DNA of 64,000 nt from Escherichia phage HansTraber_Bas100. Every line of letters starts with the position of its first letter. Positions within the stretch are counted from its first letter, which is position 1. Below are positions 54,701 through 57,780 of the stretch, one piece after another. A program made the position numbers and the translations under genes. Where the stretch lies: sequence record PQ850605.1, one strand, 5' to 3'. The notes under the pieces were generated by a model. That model was given only the letters and a program-made list of their open reading frames with translations. It searched no databases and had not been told where the DNA came from.

Positions 54701-54917
54701 CAGCAGCGGCTAAGTCATTGATTTGCATAACAAGCGGCGAAAGGGATGGATTTCTTTTATACGTATCAAACAGTACACCACGCACCACGGTCCGCTATTC
54801 ATTCAGCACTATGATTTATGTACTTTTACAGCCAATCTGAACATCAATCTGCACTTGAATATAATGTTCATTCATTGTATAATTCACACTATTAATTTGC
54901 ACTATGGGATTTGCACT

Positions 54918-55391
54918 ATGAGTCAAGATTATGTAGCAATGCCTGAAGACTTTGAAGACCCGCGATTTGCAGAGCATAATCAGGCATTATTCGATGAGTT
55001 CATTGACCTTGTTATTCAGGGCCATGACATGCGCGCAGCTTTTGCACTAGTATTTGGCATGGAGGTTGCGACCGATAACTACACTGGCCAGCGAATCCTC
55101 TGCACGCAACGCAATCCGTACTACAAGATGCGCTACAAAAAGCGTATGGAAGAGATGCCATTGAAGGAATTGTGGAGCGTAAAGAGTTCCATCCACAATT
55201 TAGTGAAGCTTGTGCGTGATCCAGAAGTCGCGGCGTCAGCCAAGCTTAATGCCATTCGTGAACTGAATATCATCTACGGCATCACGATGATTGATGAAAA
55301 TGGCAATAGTAAAATGGGCCGTTCCATGGACGATTTCTACAAGGATTTTGGAGAGGCAGCCAAAGAGGGTGAGCAATTCTCCCGCCACTAG
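54918..55391 (+). CDS. hypothetical protein (158 aa); start codon embedded in the ATTTGCACTATG motif
   Basis: Internal ATG at 54918 preceded by two motif copies; phage-like base composition; function unknown. Confidence 0.4.
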   Translation: MSQDYVAMPEDFEDPRFAEHNQALFDEFIDLVIQGHDMRAAFALVFGMEVATDNYTGQRILCTQRNPYYKMRYKKRMEEMPLKELWSVKSSIHNLVKLVRDPEVAASAKLNAIRELNIIYGITMIDENGNSKMGRSMDDFYKDFGEAAKEGEQFSRH

Positions 55392-55408
55392 CCAATTTGC
55401 ACTATAAA

Positions 55409-55446
55409 ATGGCCCTAGAACACATTTTCTCCACTTCTAGGGCCAT
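55409..55446. other. perfect 12-bp-stem hairpin (ATGGCCCTAGAA / TTCTAGGGCCAT, 14-nt loop)
   Basis: Perfect inverted repeat 3 nt after the motif copy at 55394-55405 and 18 nt after the stop of 54918..55391; no T-run. Confidence 0.5.
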
Positions 55447-55505
55447 CGGTAATACGACGGGGAAGGTTACAACCATAAACGCGTTAGAAAGTGTATTATT
55501 ATAAG

Positions 55506-55769
55506 TCATCTTTTAGTCACTTTACGTAACAATTTACGACCTTCCGCCGTCCAGTCGAACGACTCCACCAGCAGATTTGCACTATAACCTAAGACGATGC
55601 GTCCCTTCTCGTTATCGACCCGCCAACAAGTCTCGAATAGCATTCGATTTGCACTATTAACTATCGCCGCGACGCGCGTTGGGTAAGCGCAATTTGCACT
55701 ATGGTCATAAAGGGATAAGGTGCGACCGCTTCCGATGGACAACGTAGCGATAAGAATAAGCGTATTCAT
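55506..55769 (-). CDS. doubtful ORF reading through the motif array (motif encodes S-A-N three times)
   Basis: ORF track; hydrophobic N-terminus MNTLILIATLSIGSG; weak RBS; may be an artefact of the in-phase DNA repeats. Confidence 0.2.
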   Translation of the reverse strand: MNTLILIATLSIGSGRTLSLYDHSANCAYPTRVAAIVNSANRMLFETCWRVDNEKGRIVLGYSANLLVESFDWTAEGRKLLRKVTKR

Positions 55770-55819
55770 AAGCCACCAATTTGCACTATGAAAAGCGACC
55801 CCGAAGGGCCGCCATTCGA

Positions 55820-56446
55820 TTAGATAATCTGGAATGTGTAGGACTTGTTGCCGAACTCGAAGTTCAAGCGTCCAGCTTCCTTAAGCTTCATGCGGAAGCG
55901 AATGTGCTTGCTATCCGGTAATCCCAGCGCGGCGAACGCTACGCGGACCGATTTGAACTCGCCTACACCCTCGACCATGACACCGTTACGGGTGAGACGC
56001 TTTTGCGCCACTTCCTTATTATCCCAGCTTTTTGCAATACCTTCGCTATTCGAACGGCGATGGGAAGGAGTTCCATTTTGCACTACGCAATTTGCACTAT
56101 CGTTTAAACCGCTCTTAACGAAGGCTTCATACTCTTCGTCGGTCATCGCGTCGAGTTCTTCCTGGGTCGGCTCGGCCTTTTTAACGACCGCACGCGCCTT
56201 ATGCGTTTTTACATCGCTGGGCACTTCCTCGCGCGACTTCGCGTCTGGGATGGGCGACTCGTTGGACGGCTCATCGAGCGCGTTTAAGGACTCGATTAAC
56301 GCTATTACGCGAGTCTCGGCGGTCCGGCGGTCCGCAAATTTTTTGATCGGCTTCGAACCGGAATTTGCATTGTAAAATGCAACGAGGTCGGCGGTCTTAG
56401 TTGCGATAACGTCGCCGCTAGTCGAGAAACGATTTAAGCTAACCAT
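55820..56446 (-). CDS. hypothetical two-domain protein (208 aa) of the foreign cassette
   Basis: ATG with AGGAG RBS; structured N- and C-terminal regions separated by an acidic low-complexity linker; contains motif copies at 56075-56100; CpG-rich codon usage. Confidence 0.5.
   Translation of the reverse strand: MVSLNRFSTSGDVIATKTADLVAFYNANSGSKPIKKFADRRTAETRVIALIESLNALDEPSNESPIPDAKSREEVPSDVKTHKARAVVKKAEPTQEELDAMTDEEYEAFVKSGLNDSANCVVQNGTPSHRRSNSEGIAKSWDNKEVAQKRLTRNGVMVEGVGEFKSVRVAFAALGLPDSKHIRFRMKLKEAGRLNFEFGNKSYTFQII
56075..56100 (+). repeat. two adjacent motif copies (ATTTTGCACTAC, AATTTGCACTAT) inside the 208-aa gene
   Basis: Read directly; on the coding strand they translate as D-S-A-N-C-V-V-Q-N. 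Confidence 0.6.
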
Positions 56447-56526: not shown

Positions 56527-56811
56527 TTACGCTTCGACGAGGGAGAAGGTCTCAAATTCTTCTTCGCCCATAACGAGTAAGATGTTACCGATTTCGACCG
56601 CTTCGAAGAAGTATCCGTTAACGTTTACTTCGAAGGCTTCGCGGTCCGATTCCGGTAACGCCGCGTAAAGTTTAAAAGCCTCGGCGACCGTTACCCCACC
56701 CGCCTCGATAGTTTGGTCTACGTTCGCGGCGTAGACTTCGGATAAAATTTGTTTTACGCCGTAGTTCTCGACGATAGCGTTACGAATAGAAGAAACGTTA
56801 AGAATAGCCAT
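56527..56811 (-). CDS. small acidic protein, paralog family member 1 (94 aa)
   Basis: AGGAG RBS; shares SEVYAANVDQTIE and VNVNGYFFEAVEIG blocks with 57445..57735; net charge about -12. Confidence 0.5.
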   Translation of the reverse strand: MAILNVSSIRNAIVENYGVKQILSEVYAANVDQTIEAGGVTVAEAFKLYAALPESDREAFEVNVNGYFFEAVEIGNILLVMGEEEFETFSLVEA

Positions 56812-56834
56812 TTTAAACTCCTAGTTGGGAGAGG

Positions 56835-56860
56835 CGTTAACGACCTATTCGTTAACTCAT
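56835..56860 (-). promoter_or_regulatory. 5' leader element: mini-uORF (ATG-AGT-TAA) overlapping a hairpin GTTAACG-AATAGGT-CGTTAAC
   Basis: Conserved with the leader of 57445..57735; stem differs but stays complementary, loop AATAGGT identical. Confidence 0.45.
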
Positions 56861-56879
56861 CCCGTCCCGATATGAGTAC

Positions 56880-56907
56880 ATTATAATATAGTGTAGAAAA
56901 AAGTAAA
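56880..56907 (-). promoter_or_regulatory. cassette promoter P1 (TTTACT-17-TATAAT on the - strand)
   Basis: - strand reads GTGCTTTACTTTTTTCTACACTATATTATAATG, near-identical to P3. Confidence 0.45.
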
Positions 56908-56917
56908 GCACTTTTTC

Positions 56918-56944
56918 GATAAAAATGAGATAAATTATTTTATC
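56918..56944. promoter_or_regulatory. palindromic operator-like element between divergent promoters (GATAAAAA-11-TTTTTATC)
   Basis: 8-bp inverted repeat centred between the -35 elements of P1 and P2. Confidence 0.35.
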
Positions 56945-56951
56945 TTTTTTC

Positions 56952-56979
56952 TTTACTTCTTCGTACACTCGCGTATACT
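56952..56979 (+). promoter_or_regulatory. cassette promoter P2 (TTTACT-16-TATACT)
   Basis: CTTTACTTCTTCGTACACTCGCGTATACT shares the TTTACTTCTTCGTACACT block with P3. Confidence 0.4.
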
Positions 56980-57035
56980 TGTTTATATCGAGACGGGCGA
57001 TGGCCCTTCCTTCTACTAGCATCGGGAGTTTTATT

Positions 57036-57338
57036 ATGACTACTTTAATCTCTTCTATCCTTACTTACGACGAAGACCGTTTAACCGTTCGTTCTCTTAT
57101 CGCCGCCGTTAACGCGGAACTAGAATCCACCATCATTAAGGTCCGCGCGGTCGCTTTCGTCGGGCTTTCCTTCGACGATATGAAATACGCCGAACGTAGC
57201 GCCATCCGCTTCGCGAAGACCGACGACGAAGCCGTTACCCTTATCGAGACGGTTACGCCTCACGGCGAAGCGTTAATTATCGTCGAGTATATCGACGTAG
57301 AAGGCGATAAAGCTTATAAACATTTTATCGCAAAATAA
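57036..57338 (+). CDS. small acidic protein, possible divergent paralog family member 2 (100 aa)
   Basis: ATG with GGGAG RBS 7 nt upstream; an in-frame upstream ATG at 57000 is also possible; N-terminus MTTL resembles the other two. Confidence 0.45.
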   Translation: MTTLISSILTYDEDRLTVRSLIAAVNAELESTIIKVRAVAFVGLSFDDMKYAERSAIRFAKTDDEAVTLIETVTPHGEALIIVEYIDVEGDKAYKHFIAK

Positions 57339-57348
57339 CGAAAAGTGC

Positions 57349-57377
57349 TTTACTTCTTCGTACACTAAGACTATAAT
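57349..57377 (+). promoter_or_regulatory. cassette promoter P3 (TTTACT-17-TATAAT)
   Basis: GTGCTTTACTTCTTCGTACACTAAGACTATAATG upstream of 57445..57735. Confidence 0.45.
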
Positions 57378-57395
57378 GTTTTATATCGAGAGGGG

Positions 57396-57419
57396 ATGAG
57401 GTAGCGAATAGGTCGCTAC
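57396..57419 (+). promoter_or_regulatory. 5' leader element: mini-uORF (ATG-AGG-TAG) overlapping a hairpin GTAGCG-AATAGGT-CGCTAC
   Basis: Counterpart of the 56835..56860 element with compensatory stem changes. Confidence 0.45.
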
Positions 57420-57444
57420 CCGCCCGACCAACTAGGAGATTATT

Positions 57445-57735
57445 ATGATTACTTTAGCCGCTATCCGTTCCGCTCGCGTCGAGACTTCCGAAAACTCTAA
57501 CGTATTTGGCGAGACTTTAGAGAGCGTTTATCTCTCTAACGTCGACGCGACTATCGAGTCTATTTATGAGCCGATCAACTTCCTCGACCTTTACAAGTAT
57601 CGCGACGAGGACATCGTATCGTCCCGCGTAACGATCAACGGCTTCGTTTATACGATTACCGAAATCGGCGGCGAATATATCGCGGTCCCGCAACTCGGCG
57701 GCGAAGTAACTTATTTTAAAATCGTCTCCTTATAA
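57445..57735 (+). CDS. small acidic protein, paralog family member 3 (96 aa)
   Basis: AGGAG RBS; ESVYLSNVDATIES and VTINGFVYTITEIGG blocks shared with 56527..56811. Confidence 0.5.
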   Translation: MITLAAIRSARVETSENSNVFGETLESVYLSNVDATIESIYEPINFLDLYKYRDEDIVSSRVTINGFVYTITEIGGEYIAVPQLGGEVTYFKIVSL

Positions 57736-57755
57736 TACCCTTCCGTTACTAATAG

Positions 57756-57780
57756 GCCGCGCTTAGTCGCGGCTTTTCTT
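57756..57780 (+). terminator. rho-independent terminator (GCCGCG-CTTAGT-CGCGGC + TTTTCTT)
   Basis: Perfect 6-bp GC stem followed by a T-run 20 nt after the stop of 57445..57735. Confidence 0.6.

What the first reader, a model, noticed from the sequence alone, without database searches (positions are those of the whole stretch)
56835..57419. Covarying leader hairpin with conserved loop and a two-codon upstream ORF
In both paralog leaders the sequence GGGATGAG is followed by a hairpin with identical loop AATAGGT but different, still complementary stems (GTTAACG/CGTTAAC versus GTAGCG/CGCTAC). The stem change coincides with a TAA-to-TAG switch in a minimal start-X-stop upstream ORF (ATG-AGT-TAA versus ATG-AGG-TAG). 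Compensatory changes argue for selection on RNA structure, suggesting a translational operator, attenuator or processing site.
Basis: seen in the sequence. Interest (0 to 1): 0.7.

Follow-up and report, generated by a model that had tools for sequence, protein, structure and literature searches.

The report
Early-promoter leader hairpin in a coliphage
Two divergent copies of a phage early promoter each transcribe a short leader that folds into the same hairpin, kept intact by matching mutations; it looks like a standard structural part of the phage's first messenger RNAs, not a regulatory switch.

Summary
GGGATGAG, an 8-bp stem and an AUAGG loop occur at 56856..56836 (-) and 57400..57420 (+). 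The stems differ at two base pairs, both fully compensated. A G.U intermediate exists in phage ECML-117.

The window is a Wifcevirus E. coli myophage. Both hairpins lie in the terminal-repeat early region, inside two inverted copies of a ~110-bp cassette: near-consensus sigma-70 promoter, an initial transcribed sequence matching the phage T7 A1 promoter (ATCGAGAGGG), the hairpin, a strong ribosome-binding site, then a small acidic gene of unknown function. A lower helix pairs the G-rich 5' end with a C-rich tract.

Similar cassettes (same initial sequence, variable hairpins) occur in 121Q-like jumbo phages and T7-like A1 leaders; related ones with other initial sequences occur in Kylevirus.

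Several readings fail. There is no U-tract, so it is not a terminator or attenuator. The ribosome-binding site lies outside the hairpin. The stem is too short for RNase III. Rfam has no match.

The two-codon upstream ORF is most likely incidental: its ribosome-binding-like G-tract abuts the AUG, the hairpin starts 4 nt after it, and TAA-to-TAG is the expected transition path for stem maintenance.

The best reading is a constitutive 5' leader stem-loop that protects or insulates early mRNA. That mechanism is inferred, not shown. Interest is moderate.

The parts
56880..56907 (-). Sigma-70-type promoter of cassette A (TTTACT, 16-nt spacer, TATAAT), preceded by AAAAAGTGC
   Evidence: 10 of 12 consensus matches; the same CTTTACTT..TACACT motif occurs in all three cassettes.
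56818..56871 (-). Leader A RNA, from the inferred start site (A at 56871) to the SD sequence. It contains the ITS AUCGGGACGGG, GGGAUGAG (56863..56856), the lower-helix 3' strand (56833..56827) and the SD region AACUAGGAG (56826..56818).
   Evidence: Covariance-model match of 81 bits; folds. The start site is inferred by analogy with T7 A1.
56836..56856 (-). Apical hairpin A: GUUAACGA / AUAGG / UCGUUAAC
56852..56860 (-). Two-codon upstream ORF ATG-AGT-TAA; judged incidental
   Evidence: Sequence; SD spacing.
56527..56811 (-). Gene A: 94 aa, pI 4.05, no family match; paralog of gene C
   Evidence: The gene slot varies between phages.
56952..56979 (+). Sigma-70-type promoter of cassette B (TTTACT, 16-nt spacer, TATACT)
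56987..57035 (+). Leader B: the same ITS family (AUCGAGACGGG) but a different short hairpin, GGGC-GAUG-GCCC (56995-57006). Its loop AUG (57000) is in frame with gene B (57036..57338).
   Evidence: Phage Mansfield has a different 7-bp stem at this position.
57349..57377 (+). Sigma-70-type promoter of cassette C (TTTACT, 17-nt spacer, TATAAT)
57385..57438 (+). Leader C RNA, from the inferred start site (A at 57385) to the SD sequence. It contains the ITS AUCGAGAGGGG, GGGAUGAG (57393-57400), the C-rich 3' strand and the SD region AACUAGGAG (57430-57438).
   Evidence: Covariance-model match of 81.5 bits; folds.
57400..57420 (+). Apical hairpin C: GGUAGCGA / AUAGG / UCGCUACC
57396..57404 (+). Two-codon upstream ORF ATG-AGG-TAG; judged incidental
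   Evidence: Sequence; SD spacing.
57445..57735 (+). Gene C: 96 aa, pI 4.23, no family match
57754..57775 (+). Terminator-like hairpin plus T-run that closes the B-C transcription unit
   Evidence: annotated as a terminator at the equivalent place in phage Mansfield.

Best explanation
The two elements are the transcribed 5' leaders of two inverted copies of a ~110-bp early-gene expression cassette. The cassette lies in the direct-terminal-repeat region of a Wifcevirus coliphage.

Each cassette has, in order: a near-consensus host sigma-70 promoter; an initial transcribed sequence (ITS) identical to that of the T7 A1 promoter; a stem-loop; a strong Shine-Dalgarno (SD) sequence; and a small acidic gene of unknown function.

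The ~60-nt leader RNA folds into one extended imperfect hairpin. Its upper part is an 8-bp apical helix capped by AUAGG. Its lower part pairs the G-rich, SD-like 5' end with a C-rich tract. The true SD lies outside this conserved hairpin.

I think it acts constitutively in cis. It ties up the 5' end of the immediate-early mRNA, limiting 5'-end-dependent decay by RppH and RNase E. It also masks the SD-like G-tract, so that ribosomes load only at the real SD. On this reading it is not a switch.

Shown: the sequence, the pairing, the compensatory changes, the cassette structure and the cross-phage analogues. Inferred: the transcription start site (by analogy with T7 A1), early expression, and the whole functional mechanism. 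The two-codon upstream ORF is a by-product of the stem sequence.
For: Context:
- The window is 96-98% identical to Wifcevirus phages.
- Phage Mansfield annotates the equivalent region as lying inside its 3.67-kb direct terminal repeat.

Promoters and start site:
- Three promoters share CTTTACTT..TACACT..TATAAT.
- ATCGAGAGGG lies 7-8 nt after the -10 hexamer, as in T7 A1, whose start site is annotated.

Structure:
- The inner helix is paired in 100% of cells across 9 distinct variants, with 2 compensatory pairs and 1 G.U intermediate.
- In the lower helix, two quite different 3' flanks (CCUCUCCC and CCCGUCGAG) both pair with the same G-rich 5' strand.
- A G-to-A change in the metagenome contig L249 turns a G.U pair into A-U.
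- Leader A variants leave 1-3 nt unpaired at the 5' end. The T7 A1 leader leaves 1.

Analogues in other phages:
- About 33 of 49 candidate leaders from 121Q-like jumbo phages (nearly all of those on the gene strand) have a G-tract/C-tract hairpin starting 0-7 nt after the inferred start, with z-scores of -2 to -6.
- Five of 7 consensus pairs in those leaders show compensatory changes.
- The jumbo-phage and Wifcevirus cassettes align from the -35 region through to the SD.
- T7-like A1 leaders keep their inner stem through a C-G to U-A change.
- Kylevirus phages PA1 and Kyle carry unrelated stems at the same leader position.

Translation signals:
- The conserved hairpin does not contain the SD.
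- The G-tract pairs with the anti-SD sequence as strongly as the real SD does (-7.0 against -7.3 kcal/mol), so masking it is plausible.
Against: - No transcription start site or expression data exist for these phages.
- Leader C in this window is predicted to leave 8 nt unpaired at the 5' end (4 in other variants). From my own knowledge of the literature, that is more than a classic 5'-terminal stabiliser tolerates.
- RNase E readily bypasses a simple stem-loop that lies orthogonal to its scanning path (PMC9943677). Protection would therefore depend on the lower helix.
- In T7 the A1 leader is cut from the coding RNAs by RNase III, so a stabiliser role cannot explain the T7 analogue.
- The loop and the GGGAUGAG motif are invariant while the stem changed twice, the reverse of what a purely structural constraint predicts. 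The numbers are too small to be significant.
- Two of the four Kylevirus cassettes have no hairpin.
Confidence: 0.45

Rival explanations
1. The hairpin is a specific RNA operator. A trans-acting factor recognises the conserved apical loop (CGAAUAGGUCG) and the GGGAUGAG internal-loop strand. Because the transcripts are immediate-early, the factor would be a host protein, an injected virion protein, or an early phage protein used for shut-off. It would control translation or stability of the A and C messages.
For: - The loop and the 5' motif are identical in A and C and in all 9 variants, while the stem changed twice.
- Leader B, which precedes a non-homologous gene, has a different hairpin.
- AAUAG or GAAUA sits at the tip of leader hairpins in T7 A1, Kylevirus, an Erwinia jumbo phage and several 121Q-like leaders, and AAUAA in Certrevirus.
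Against: - Zero changes in 7 loop positions against 4 in 14 stem positions is not statistically significant.
- The cassettes may have been homogenised recently.
- The hairpin does not touch the SD.
- In ECML-117 and WFC, leader A drives unrelated genes, so it is not tied to the A/C protein family.
- T7-like and jumbo-phage loops do vary.
- No candidate binding protein was found.
Confidence: 0.2
2. The hairpin acts co-transcriptionally. It folds the G-rich nascent RNA as soon as it leaves RNA polymerase. This prevents backtracking or R-loop formation, or sets a promoter-proximal pause, and so keeps a very strong promoter clear. It would belong to the promoter rather than to the mRNA.
For: - The hairpin always accompanies a conserved purine-rich ITS shared with T7 A1 and the jumbo phages.
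- The G-strand always comes first.
- In T7 the leader is removed by RNase III, so an mRNA-level role is unlikely there (my own knowledge).
Against: - The hairpin cannot form until polymerase is roughly 45-50 nt downstream, well after promoter escape.
- No -10-like pause element was evident when I read the sequence.
- Nothing here tests transcription.
Confidence: 0.15
3. The conserved cassette matters mainly as a recombination module, like the PeSL cassettes of T4-like phages. It lets small genes of unknown function be swapped in and out, and the hairpin has little or no RNA function of its own.
For: - The slot after leader A holds a 94-aa gene, a 104-aa gene or nothing in different Wifceviruses, with breakpoints at the conserved SD region.
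- The cassettes are repeated and inverted.
- PeSLs are documented in PMC2839356 and PMC4122927.
Against: Recombination needs sequence identity, not base pairing. Compensatory stem changes and structure-preserving polymorphisms indicate selection on the fold itself. Unlike PeSL stem-loops, this one lies inside the transcript and has no terminator features.
Confidence: 0.08
4. The two-codon ORF is a functional minigene or start-stop element, comparable to the lambda bar minigenes. Its translation would open the hairpin or sequester tRNA, for example the rare AGG-decoding tRNA-Arg in leader C.
For: - AUG-X-stop is kept in all 9 variants, including the TAA-to-TAG changes.
- An SD-like G-tract precedes it.
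- The promoter is strong, so copy number would be high.
Against: - The SD-like tract is 0-2 nt from the AUG, against 5-6 nt for the genes.
- A stable hairpin starts 4 nt after the AUG.
- The SD-like tract differs between A (GGGACGGG) and C (GAGAGGGG).
- TAA to TAG is the default transition path for keeping the pair.
- No equivalent ORF exists in the T7, jumbo-phage or Kylevirus leaders.
Confidence: 0.04
5. The inverted repeat is a DNA operator for a dimeric repressor that blocks the early promoters from position +16 to +36.
For: It is a perfect palindrome placed just downstream of the start site. Symmetric changes in both half-sites would mimic covariation.
Against: - The ECML-117 variant breaks DNA symmetry but keeps a G.U pair in RNA.
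- The asymmetric spacer is the most conserved part, while the 'half-sites' differ at 2 of 7 positions between A and C.
- Analogous hairpins in other phages have unrelated stems.
Confidence: 0.04

Closest known systems
Phage T7 early promoter A1 and its leader
   Same: It is a host sigma-70 promoter. The same ATCGAGAGGG lies at +1 to +10, with the same 7-nt distance from the -10 hexamer. The leader folds into an imperfect hairpin that pairs the G-rich 5' end, with a small apical stem capped by GAAUA. That stem is kept by a C-G to U-A change in phages 13a and YpP-Y.
   Different: The T7 apical stem is only 3 bp. The leader is about 430 nt long and is cut off by RNase III (my own knowledge) rather than leading straight into an SD. 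There is no GGGAUGAG motif and no upstream ORF. One T7-like phage, IME15, breaks the pair.
Early promoter cassettes of 121Q/PBECO4-like jumbo coliphages (not described in the papers I could search)
   Same: The cassettes align from the AAAAAGT(G/A)CTT upstream region through TATAATGTTTTA(T/C)ATCGAGAGGGG and the C-rich strand to the AACUAGGAG SD. They sit in front of arrays of small early genes of unknown function, some within terminal repeats.
   Different: The hairpin is a simple G-tract/loop/C-tract stem. The Wifcevirus leader carries about 14 extra nucleotides, which form the apical 8-bp helix with the AUAGG loop.
PeSL cassettes (promoter-early stem-loops) of T4-like phages (Arbiol 2010, PMC2839356; Comeau 2014, PMC4122927)
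   Same: These are repeated composite cassettes of an AT-rich region, a sigma-70 early promoter, a stem-loop and an SD. They flank small genes of unknown function and are associated with gene insertion, deletion and replacement.
   Different: In PeSLs the stem-loop lies upstream of, or overlaps, the promoter and was shown to terminate upstream transcription. Here it lies downstream of the inferred start site, inside the leader, and has no terminator features.
5'-terminal stabilising stem-loops of E. coli mRNAs (ompA type; Emory, Bouvet and Belasco 1992, cited from memory)
   Same: Both are stem-loops at the extreme 5' end of an mRNA, upstream of the SD, acting in cis.
   Different: Stabilisation has not been tested here. 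The number of unpaired 5' nucleotides (1-8, with an inferred start site) is at or beyond the tolerated limit for some variants.
Lambda bar two-codon minigenes (cited from memory)
   Same: Both are an AUG-X-stop ORF on an early phage transcript.
   Different: The bar minigenes have a properly spaced SD. Here the SD-like tract abuts the AUG and a hairpin follows immediately.
Lambda nut sites (boxA plus boxB)
   Same: Both have a linear conserved motif followed by a hairpin with a conserved loop and a variable stem, just downstream of an early promoter.
   Different: There is no boxA consensus. The loop AUAGG is not a GNRA-like pentaloop. The operons are short, ending at one ordinary terminator, and no N-like protein was identified.

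Membership tests
Intrinsic terminator / attenuator | A GC-rich hairpin immediately followed by a U-tract | tested here: not met
   The hairpins are followed by GCCUCUCCC (A) and CGCCCGACC (C). No terminator-like site is reported at either position on either strand.
Intrinsic terminator / attenuator | A leader peptide with alternative, mutually exclusive hairpins | tested here: not met
   A single dominant fold is predicted. The two-codon ORF carries no regulatory codons.
Translational operator that occludes the ribosome-binding site | The SD or the start codon lies inside the conserved structure | tested here: not met
   The conserved hairpin ends 13-14 nt before the SD. The SD is free in leader-only folds. 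A weak, non-conserved pairing with the first codons appears only when coding sequence is added.
RNase III processing site | About two helical turns (roughly 20 bp) of near-continuous duplex | tested here: not met
   The helix is 8 bp, then an internal loop, then 3-7 bp.
5'-terminal stabilising stem-loop (ompA type) | The stem-loop begins within a few (about 4 or fewer) unpaired nucleotides of the 5' end | tested here: inconclusive
   The start site is inferred only. Predicted unpaired 5' nucleotides are 1-3 for A variants and 4-8 for C variants.
5'-terminal stabilising stem-loop (ompA type) | It prolongs mRNA half-life in an RNase E / RppH-dependent way | not testable with these tools
   This needs half-life measurements.
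PeSL cassette (T4-like phages) | A repeated sigma-70 early promoter plus stem-loop plus SD, flanking small genes of unknown function and associated with insertions and deletions | tested here: met
   Three cassettes are present in the window. The gene slot after leader A varies between phages.
PeSL cassette (T4-like phages) | The stem-loop lies upstream of, or overlaps, the promoter and terminates upstream transcription | tested here: not met
   The stem-loop lies 15-35 nt downstream of the inferred start site and has no U-tract.
T7 A1-type early promoter | Sigma-70 -35 and -10 hexamers with ATCGAGAGGG starting 7 nt after the -10 hexamer | tested here: met
   Leader A has ATCGGGACGGG, 8 nt after the -10 hexamer.
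Two-codon minigene (lambda bar type) | AUG-X-stop | tested here: met
   ATG-AGT-TAA and ATG-AGG-TAG; kept in all 9 variants.
Two-codon minigene (lambda bar type) | An SD at a functional distance (about 5-9 nt) and an accessible start codon | tested here: not met
   The SD-like tract ends 0-2 nt before the AUG, and the hairpin starts 4 nt after it.
Lambda nut site | A boxA consensus and a boxB GNRA-like pentaloop | tested here: not met
   Reading the sequence shows no CGCUCUUA-like boxA, and the loop is AUAGG.
Any Rfam family | A covariance-model match | tested here: not met
   No match at gathering score in the window. No match up to E = 10 in 56780-57470.

The most novel reading that the evidence does not exclude
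The Wifcevirus hairpin belongs to an undescribed cis-acting RNA module that moves between unrelated enterobacterial phages (T7-like, 121Q-like jumbo, Wifcevirus, Kylevirus, Certrevirus). The module is a G-rich initial transcribed sequence plus a 5' hairpin whose tip often carries (G)AAUAG. A host component, such as RNA polymerase, the ribosome or an RNase, reads it and gives immediate-early phage transcripts privileged expression before any phage protein exists.
Probability: 0.12. Interest if true: 0.7.

Novelty: new variant of a known kind. Interest (0 to 1): 0.38.

Why it matters
If the leader hairpin conditions early mRNA, it forms part of a compact and apparently portable 'instant-on' expression cassette. 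Wifceviruses are reported to have unusually short infection cycles (BASEL preprint).

The shared T7 A1-type initial sequence and hairpin design in unrelated coliphages suggests one of two things. Either promoter-leader modules move horizontally between phages, or selection converges on one solution for E. coli RNA polymerase and ribosomes.

In practical terms, the cassette is a ready-made strong promoter and 5' UTR part. It also marks immediate-early, probably anti-host, genes in poorly annotated phages.

Tried and rejected
- Rfam at gathering and at permissive thresholds gave nothing.
- The IMG/VR scan for GGGATGAG-N-AATAGGT gave 122 matches. Only the Wifcevirus contigs form the hairpin; the rest are chance.
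- The metagenome scan for TATAAT-N-ATCGNGANGGGATGAG gave only Wifcevirus-like contigs plus one chance hit, with almost no new variation.
- The scan for TATAAT-N7-ATCGAGAG was mostly chance apart from jumbo phages.
- The scan for AAGTGCTTTACT..TATAAT showed that this upstream motif is widespread in viral contigs. Most have short leaders without hairpins, and only phage Kyle was informative.
- A covariance model of the leader found full matches only at the two window copies, and partial matches (ITS, lower helix and SD) in jumbo phages.
- PHROGs and Pfam on the five neighbouring proteins gave one family of unknown function.
- The idea that the hairpin blocks RNase E scanning was dropped, because orthogonal stem-loops are readily bypassed (PMC9943677).
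- K-turn, T-loop, boxB pentaloop, a CsrA GGA-in-loop site and a sigma-dependent pause element were each considered by eye and rejected as not fitting.
- A long-range alternative fold that pairs the 5' arm of leader C with codons 5-10 of gene C was not pursued, because leader A has no equivalent.
- Papers on Wifcevirus, vB_Eco4M-7 and Rak2-like phages contain no description of these leaders.
Full report
**What is in the sequence**

The pattern GGGATGAG-N(5-9)-AATAGGT occurs exactly twice in the 64-kb window, at 56843-56863 on the minus strand and 57393-57413 on the plus strand. None were found in shuffled sequence.

Read as RNA, the copies are GGGAUGA-GUUAACGA-AUAGG-UCGUUAAC (copy A, hairpin 56856..56836) and GGGAUGA-GGUAGCGA-AUAGG-UCGCUACC (copy C, hairpin 57400..57420).

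The stems differ at four positions that make two fully compensated pairs. The two-codon ORFs ATG-AGT-TAA and ATG-AGG-TAG are present as described. The proteins downstream are distant paralogs (30% identity, E = 1e-5).

A perfect 8-bp hairpin is not unusual in itself: 12 occur in the window against about 7 in simulated sequence. RNAfold z-scores are only about -2. The case therefore rests on the homologous pair and its context, not on the hairpin alone.

**Where it sits**

The window is a Wifcevirus-type E. coli myophage, 96-98% identical to AV128, Bas99, Mansfield and others. In phage Mansfield the equivalent stretch lies inside the 3.67-kb direct terminal repeat, between the small terminase gene and the tail-fibre genes.

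Each hairpin is part of a ~110-bp cassette. The cassette runs from an A-rich stretch plus GTGCTTTACTT, through a TACACT-containing spacer and TATAAT, then 7-8 nt, then ATCG(A/G)GA(G/C)GGG, the hairpin, a C-rich tract, AACUAGGAG, and the ATG.

Cassettes A and C are inverted copies, 78-89% complementary. A third cassette, B (promoter 56952-56979), has the same promoter and initial sequence but a different short hairpin, GGGC-GAUG-GCCC. It precedes an unrelated 100-aa gene.

All three genes encode small acidic proteins (pI 4.0-4.8) with no Pfam or PHROG match. A terminator-like hairpin follows gene C.

**Transcription start**

The sequence ATCGAGAGGG, 7 nt after the -10 hexamer, matches the +1 to +10 of the phage T7 A1 promoter. 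The T7 A1 start site is annotated in the T7 genome record.

By analogy I place the starts at A 56871 (-) and A 57385 (+). This gives 60-nt leaders with the hairpin at +16 to +36. This is an inference; I found no transcript mapping for these phages.

**Is the structure selected?**

I collected leaders from the phage collection, IMG/VR and metagenomes. The exact element is confined to Wifcevirus-like genomes and is nearly invariant. The variation that exists is informative.

- Across 9 distinct leader sequences the 8-bp helix is paired in 100% of cells. There are two compensatory pairs (U-A/G-C and A-U/G-C) and one G.U intermediate, in ECML-117. Sliding the 3' partners by 1-3 columns destroys the pairing.
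- RNAalifold adds a lower helix that pairs the G-rich start of the RNA with the C-rich tract after the hairpin.
- Two very different 3' flanks, CCUCUCCC and CCCGUCGAG, both pair with the same 5' strand in different registers.
- A G-to-A polymorphism in the metagenome contig L249 converts a G.U pair into A-U.

The G.U states argue for RNA rather than a DNA palindrome. The number of independent events is small, about three in the apical helix.

**Analogues in other phages**

A 25-nt stretch of the cassette (TATAATGTTTTATATCGAGAGGGGA) matches 121Q/PBECO4/K64-1-like jumbo phages exactly. In one of them (WPEC3), and in related IMG/VR contigs, dozens of small early genes each have their own promoter. 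Each promoter is TACTTGCA-N17-TATAAT-GTTTTAC-ATCGAGAG, followed at once by a G-tract/loop/C-tract hairpin and an SD.

About 33 of 49 candidate leaders (nearly all of those on the gene strand) fold with z below -2. The stems differ, and 5 of 7 consensus pairs show compensatory changes.

The jumbo-phage and Wifcevirus cassettes align from the upstream region to the SD. The Wifcevirus leader carries about 14 extra nucleotides, which form the apical helix.

T7-like A1 leaders fold into a similar imperfect hairpin that pairs nucleotide 2 onward. Their small apical stem is kept by a C-G to U-A change in 13a and YpP-Y, although IME15 breaks it.

The Pantoea phages PA1 and Kyle (Kylevirus, ~70 kb) have four related divergent promoters. 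Two have short leaders without a hairpin. Two have hairpins, and at one position the stems are entirely different between the two phages.

A Certrevirus (CR3) and an Erwinia jumbo phage carry a related leader, ATAGGGCG...AAUA.

A promoter-proximal 5' hairpin is therefore a recurrent design in sigma-70 early cassettes of enterobacterial phages. The Wifcevirus element is an elaborated version of it.

**What it is not**

- No U-tract follows the hairpin on either strand, and the terminator scan finds nothing there. It is not a terminator or attenuator.
- The conserved structure ends 13-14 nt before the SD. Only weak, non-conserved pairing with the first codons touches the SD. It is not an occluding operator.
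- The duplex is far shorter than an RNase III site.
- Rfam has no match even at E = 10.

**The upstream ORF**

The AUG-X-stop is kept in every variant, but so is almost everything else. Several points argue against a functional ORF.

- The G-tract before the AUG can pair with the anti-SD sequence as well as the true SD does (-7.0 against -7.3 kcal/mol). It ends 0-2 nt before the AUG, however, against 5-6 nt for the three genes.
- The stable hairpin begins 4 nt after the AUG.
- The G-tract differs between A and C.
- The TAA-to-TAG change is the A-U to G.U to G-C transition path, with the G.U step actually observed. Stem maintenance alone predicts it.
- None of the analogous leaders has such an ORF.

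I judge the upstream ORF incidental, with about a 4% chance of being a functional minigene.

**Most likely mechanism**

I favour a constitutive cis-acting role. The extended hairpin ties up the 5' end of the immediate-early mRNA and hides the SD-like G-tract. This protects the message from 5'-end-dependent decay and directs ribosomes to the true SD.

Points in favour:
- The lower helix reaches to within 1-3 nt of the inferred 5' end in leader A variants and in T7 A1.
- The SD-like strength of the G-tract makes masking it plausible.
- The design is general across phages.

Points against:
- Leader C in this window leaves 8 nt free at the 5' end.
- A simple stem-loop does not stop RNase E scanning (PMC9943677).
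- The T7 leader is removed by RNase III (my own knowledge).
- The loop and GGGAUGAG are more conserved than the stem.

The last point keeps alive a rival in which a factor reads the loop. The recurrence of (G)AAUAG at hairpin tips in T7 A1, Kylevirus, an Erwinia jumbo phage and some 121Q-like leaders (AAUAA in Certrevirus) is suggestive. It is not statistically testable here, because the cassettes share ancestry. A co-transcriptional role and a purely recombinational, PeSL-like role are also possible.

**Comparison with known systems**

The closest published concept is the PeSL cassette of T4-like phages: a repeated early promoter, stem-loop and SD flanking small genes of unknown function and driving gene shuffling (PMC2839356, PMC4122927).

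The Wifcevirus cassette shares the composition and the association with gene replacement. The slot after leader A holds a 94-aa gene, a 104-aa gene or nothing in different phages. It fails the defining position and function, however. PeSL stem-loops lie upstream of, or across, the promoter and terminate transcription. This one lies inside the leader and has no terminator features.

The element works most like a 5'-terminal stabilising stem-loop, but membership of that class is untested.

**Verdict**

This is a real, structurally selected leader hairpin that forms part of an early promoter-leader cassette. It is a new variant of known kinds and of moderate interest.

Noticed in passing
window 54792-56103 (+): At least 8 copies of the motif (A/G)ATTTGCACTAT(A/G) lie within the terminal-repeat region. 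They overlap the small-terminase-like ORF and two minus-strand ORFs (families D1-D3, D5, D6, D12). They could be a phage-specific promoter or a protein-binding array.
   Followed up: no
window 57372-57396 (+); L007 (phage WPEC3); L129 (T7 positions 498-507): The -10 hexamer plus initial transcribed sequence, TATAATGTTTTATATCGAGAGGGGA, matches 121Q-like jumbo coliphages exactly. Its ATCGAGAGGG equals T7 A1 +1 to +10 at the same distance from the -10 hexamer. This points to shared or convergent promoter-leader modules in unrelated coliphages.
   Followed up: partly
window 56995-57006 (+): The leader B hairpin GGGC-GAUG-GCCC displays an AUG in its loop that is in frame with gene B, 12 codons upstream of the annotated start at 57036. 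Phage Mansfield has a different 7-bp stem (GAGAGGC/GCCUCUU) with a GAUGG loop at the same place.
   Followed up: partly
window 56527-56811 (-); L003, L005, L249, L253: The gene slot directly after leader A varies among Wifceviruses. It holds a 94-aa ORF here, an unrelated-looking 104-aa acidic ORF in WFC-like phages, and no gene in ECML-117, where the leader is fused to the 208-aa phrog_4730 gene at a similar SD sequence.
   Followed up: partly
window 56527-56811 (-), 57036-57338 (+), 57445-57735 (+): All three cassette-driven proteins are small and strongly acidic (pI 4.05, 4.79 and 4.23) and match no family. This is reminiscent of early anti-host or DNA-mimic proteins such as T7 Ocr, but no test was done.
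   Followed up: no
L008 (Pantoea phage PA1) 2830-3450; L277/L300 (phage Kyle); L344-L346: Leader hairpins of unrelated phages often carry (G)AAUAG, GAAUA or AAUAA at the tip: T7 A1 GGC-GAAUA-GCC, Kylevirus CGG-AAUAGA-CCG, CR3 CGG-AAUAA-CCCG, Erwinia jumbo phage GCA-AUAG-UGC, and several 121Q-like GGGAA-UAG-UUCCC. It is unclear whether this reflects shared ancestry or function.
   Followed up: partly
window about 28950-28860 (-): Another sigma-70-like promoter (TTGACT, 17-nt spacer, CATAAT) has an initial sequence ATCGAAACGAAACAGAGGAA and no hairpin. It resembles the hairpin-less Kylevirus leaders, ATCGAAACGAAGGAGAG.
   Followed up: no
IMG/VR loci L259-L341: The upstream motif AAGTGCTTTACT(T) with a 16-18-nt spacer before TATAAT is found in about 60 diverse viral contigs, mostly AT-rich with short leaders. 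It may be a widespread extended -35 / UP-type promoter signature.
   Followed up: no
window 57385-57480 (+): When 35 nt of coding sequence are included, leader C is predicted to prefer a long-range fold. In it, the ITS and the 5' arm pair with codons 5-10 of gene C (CGCUAUCCGUUCCGCUC), at -29.4 kcal/mol against about -20 for the local hairpin. Leader A has no equivalent. This may be chance.
   Followed up: no
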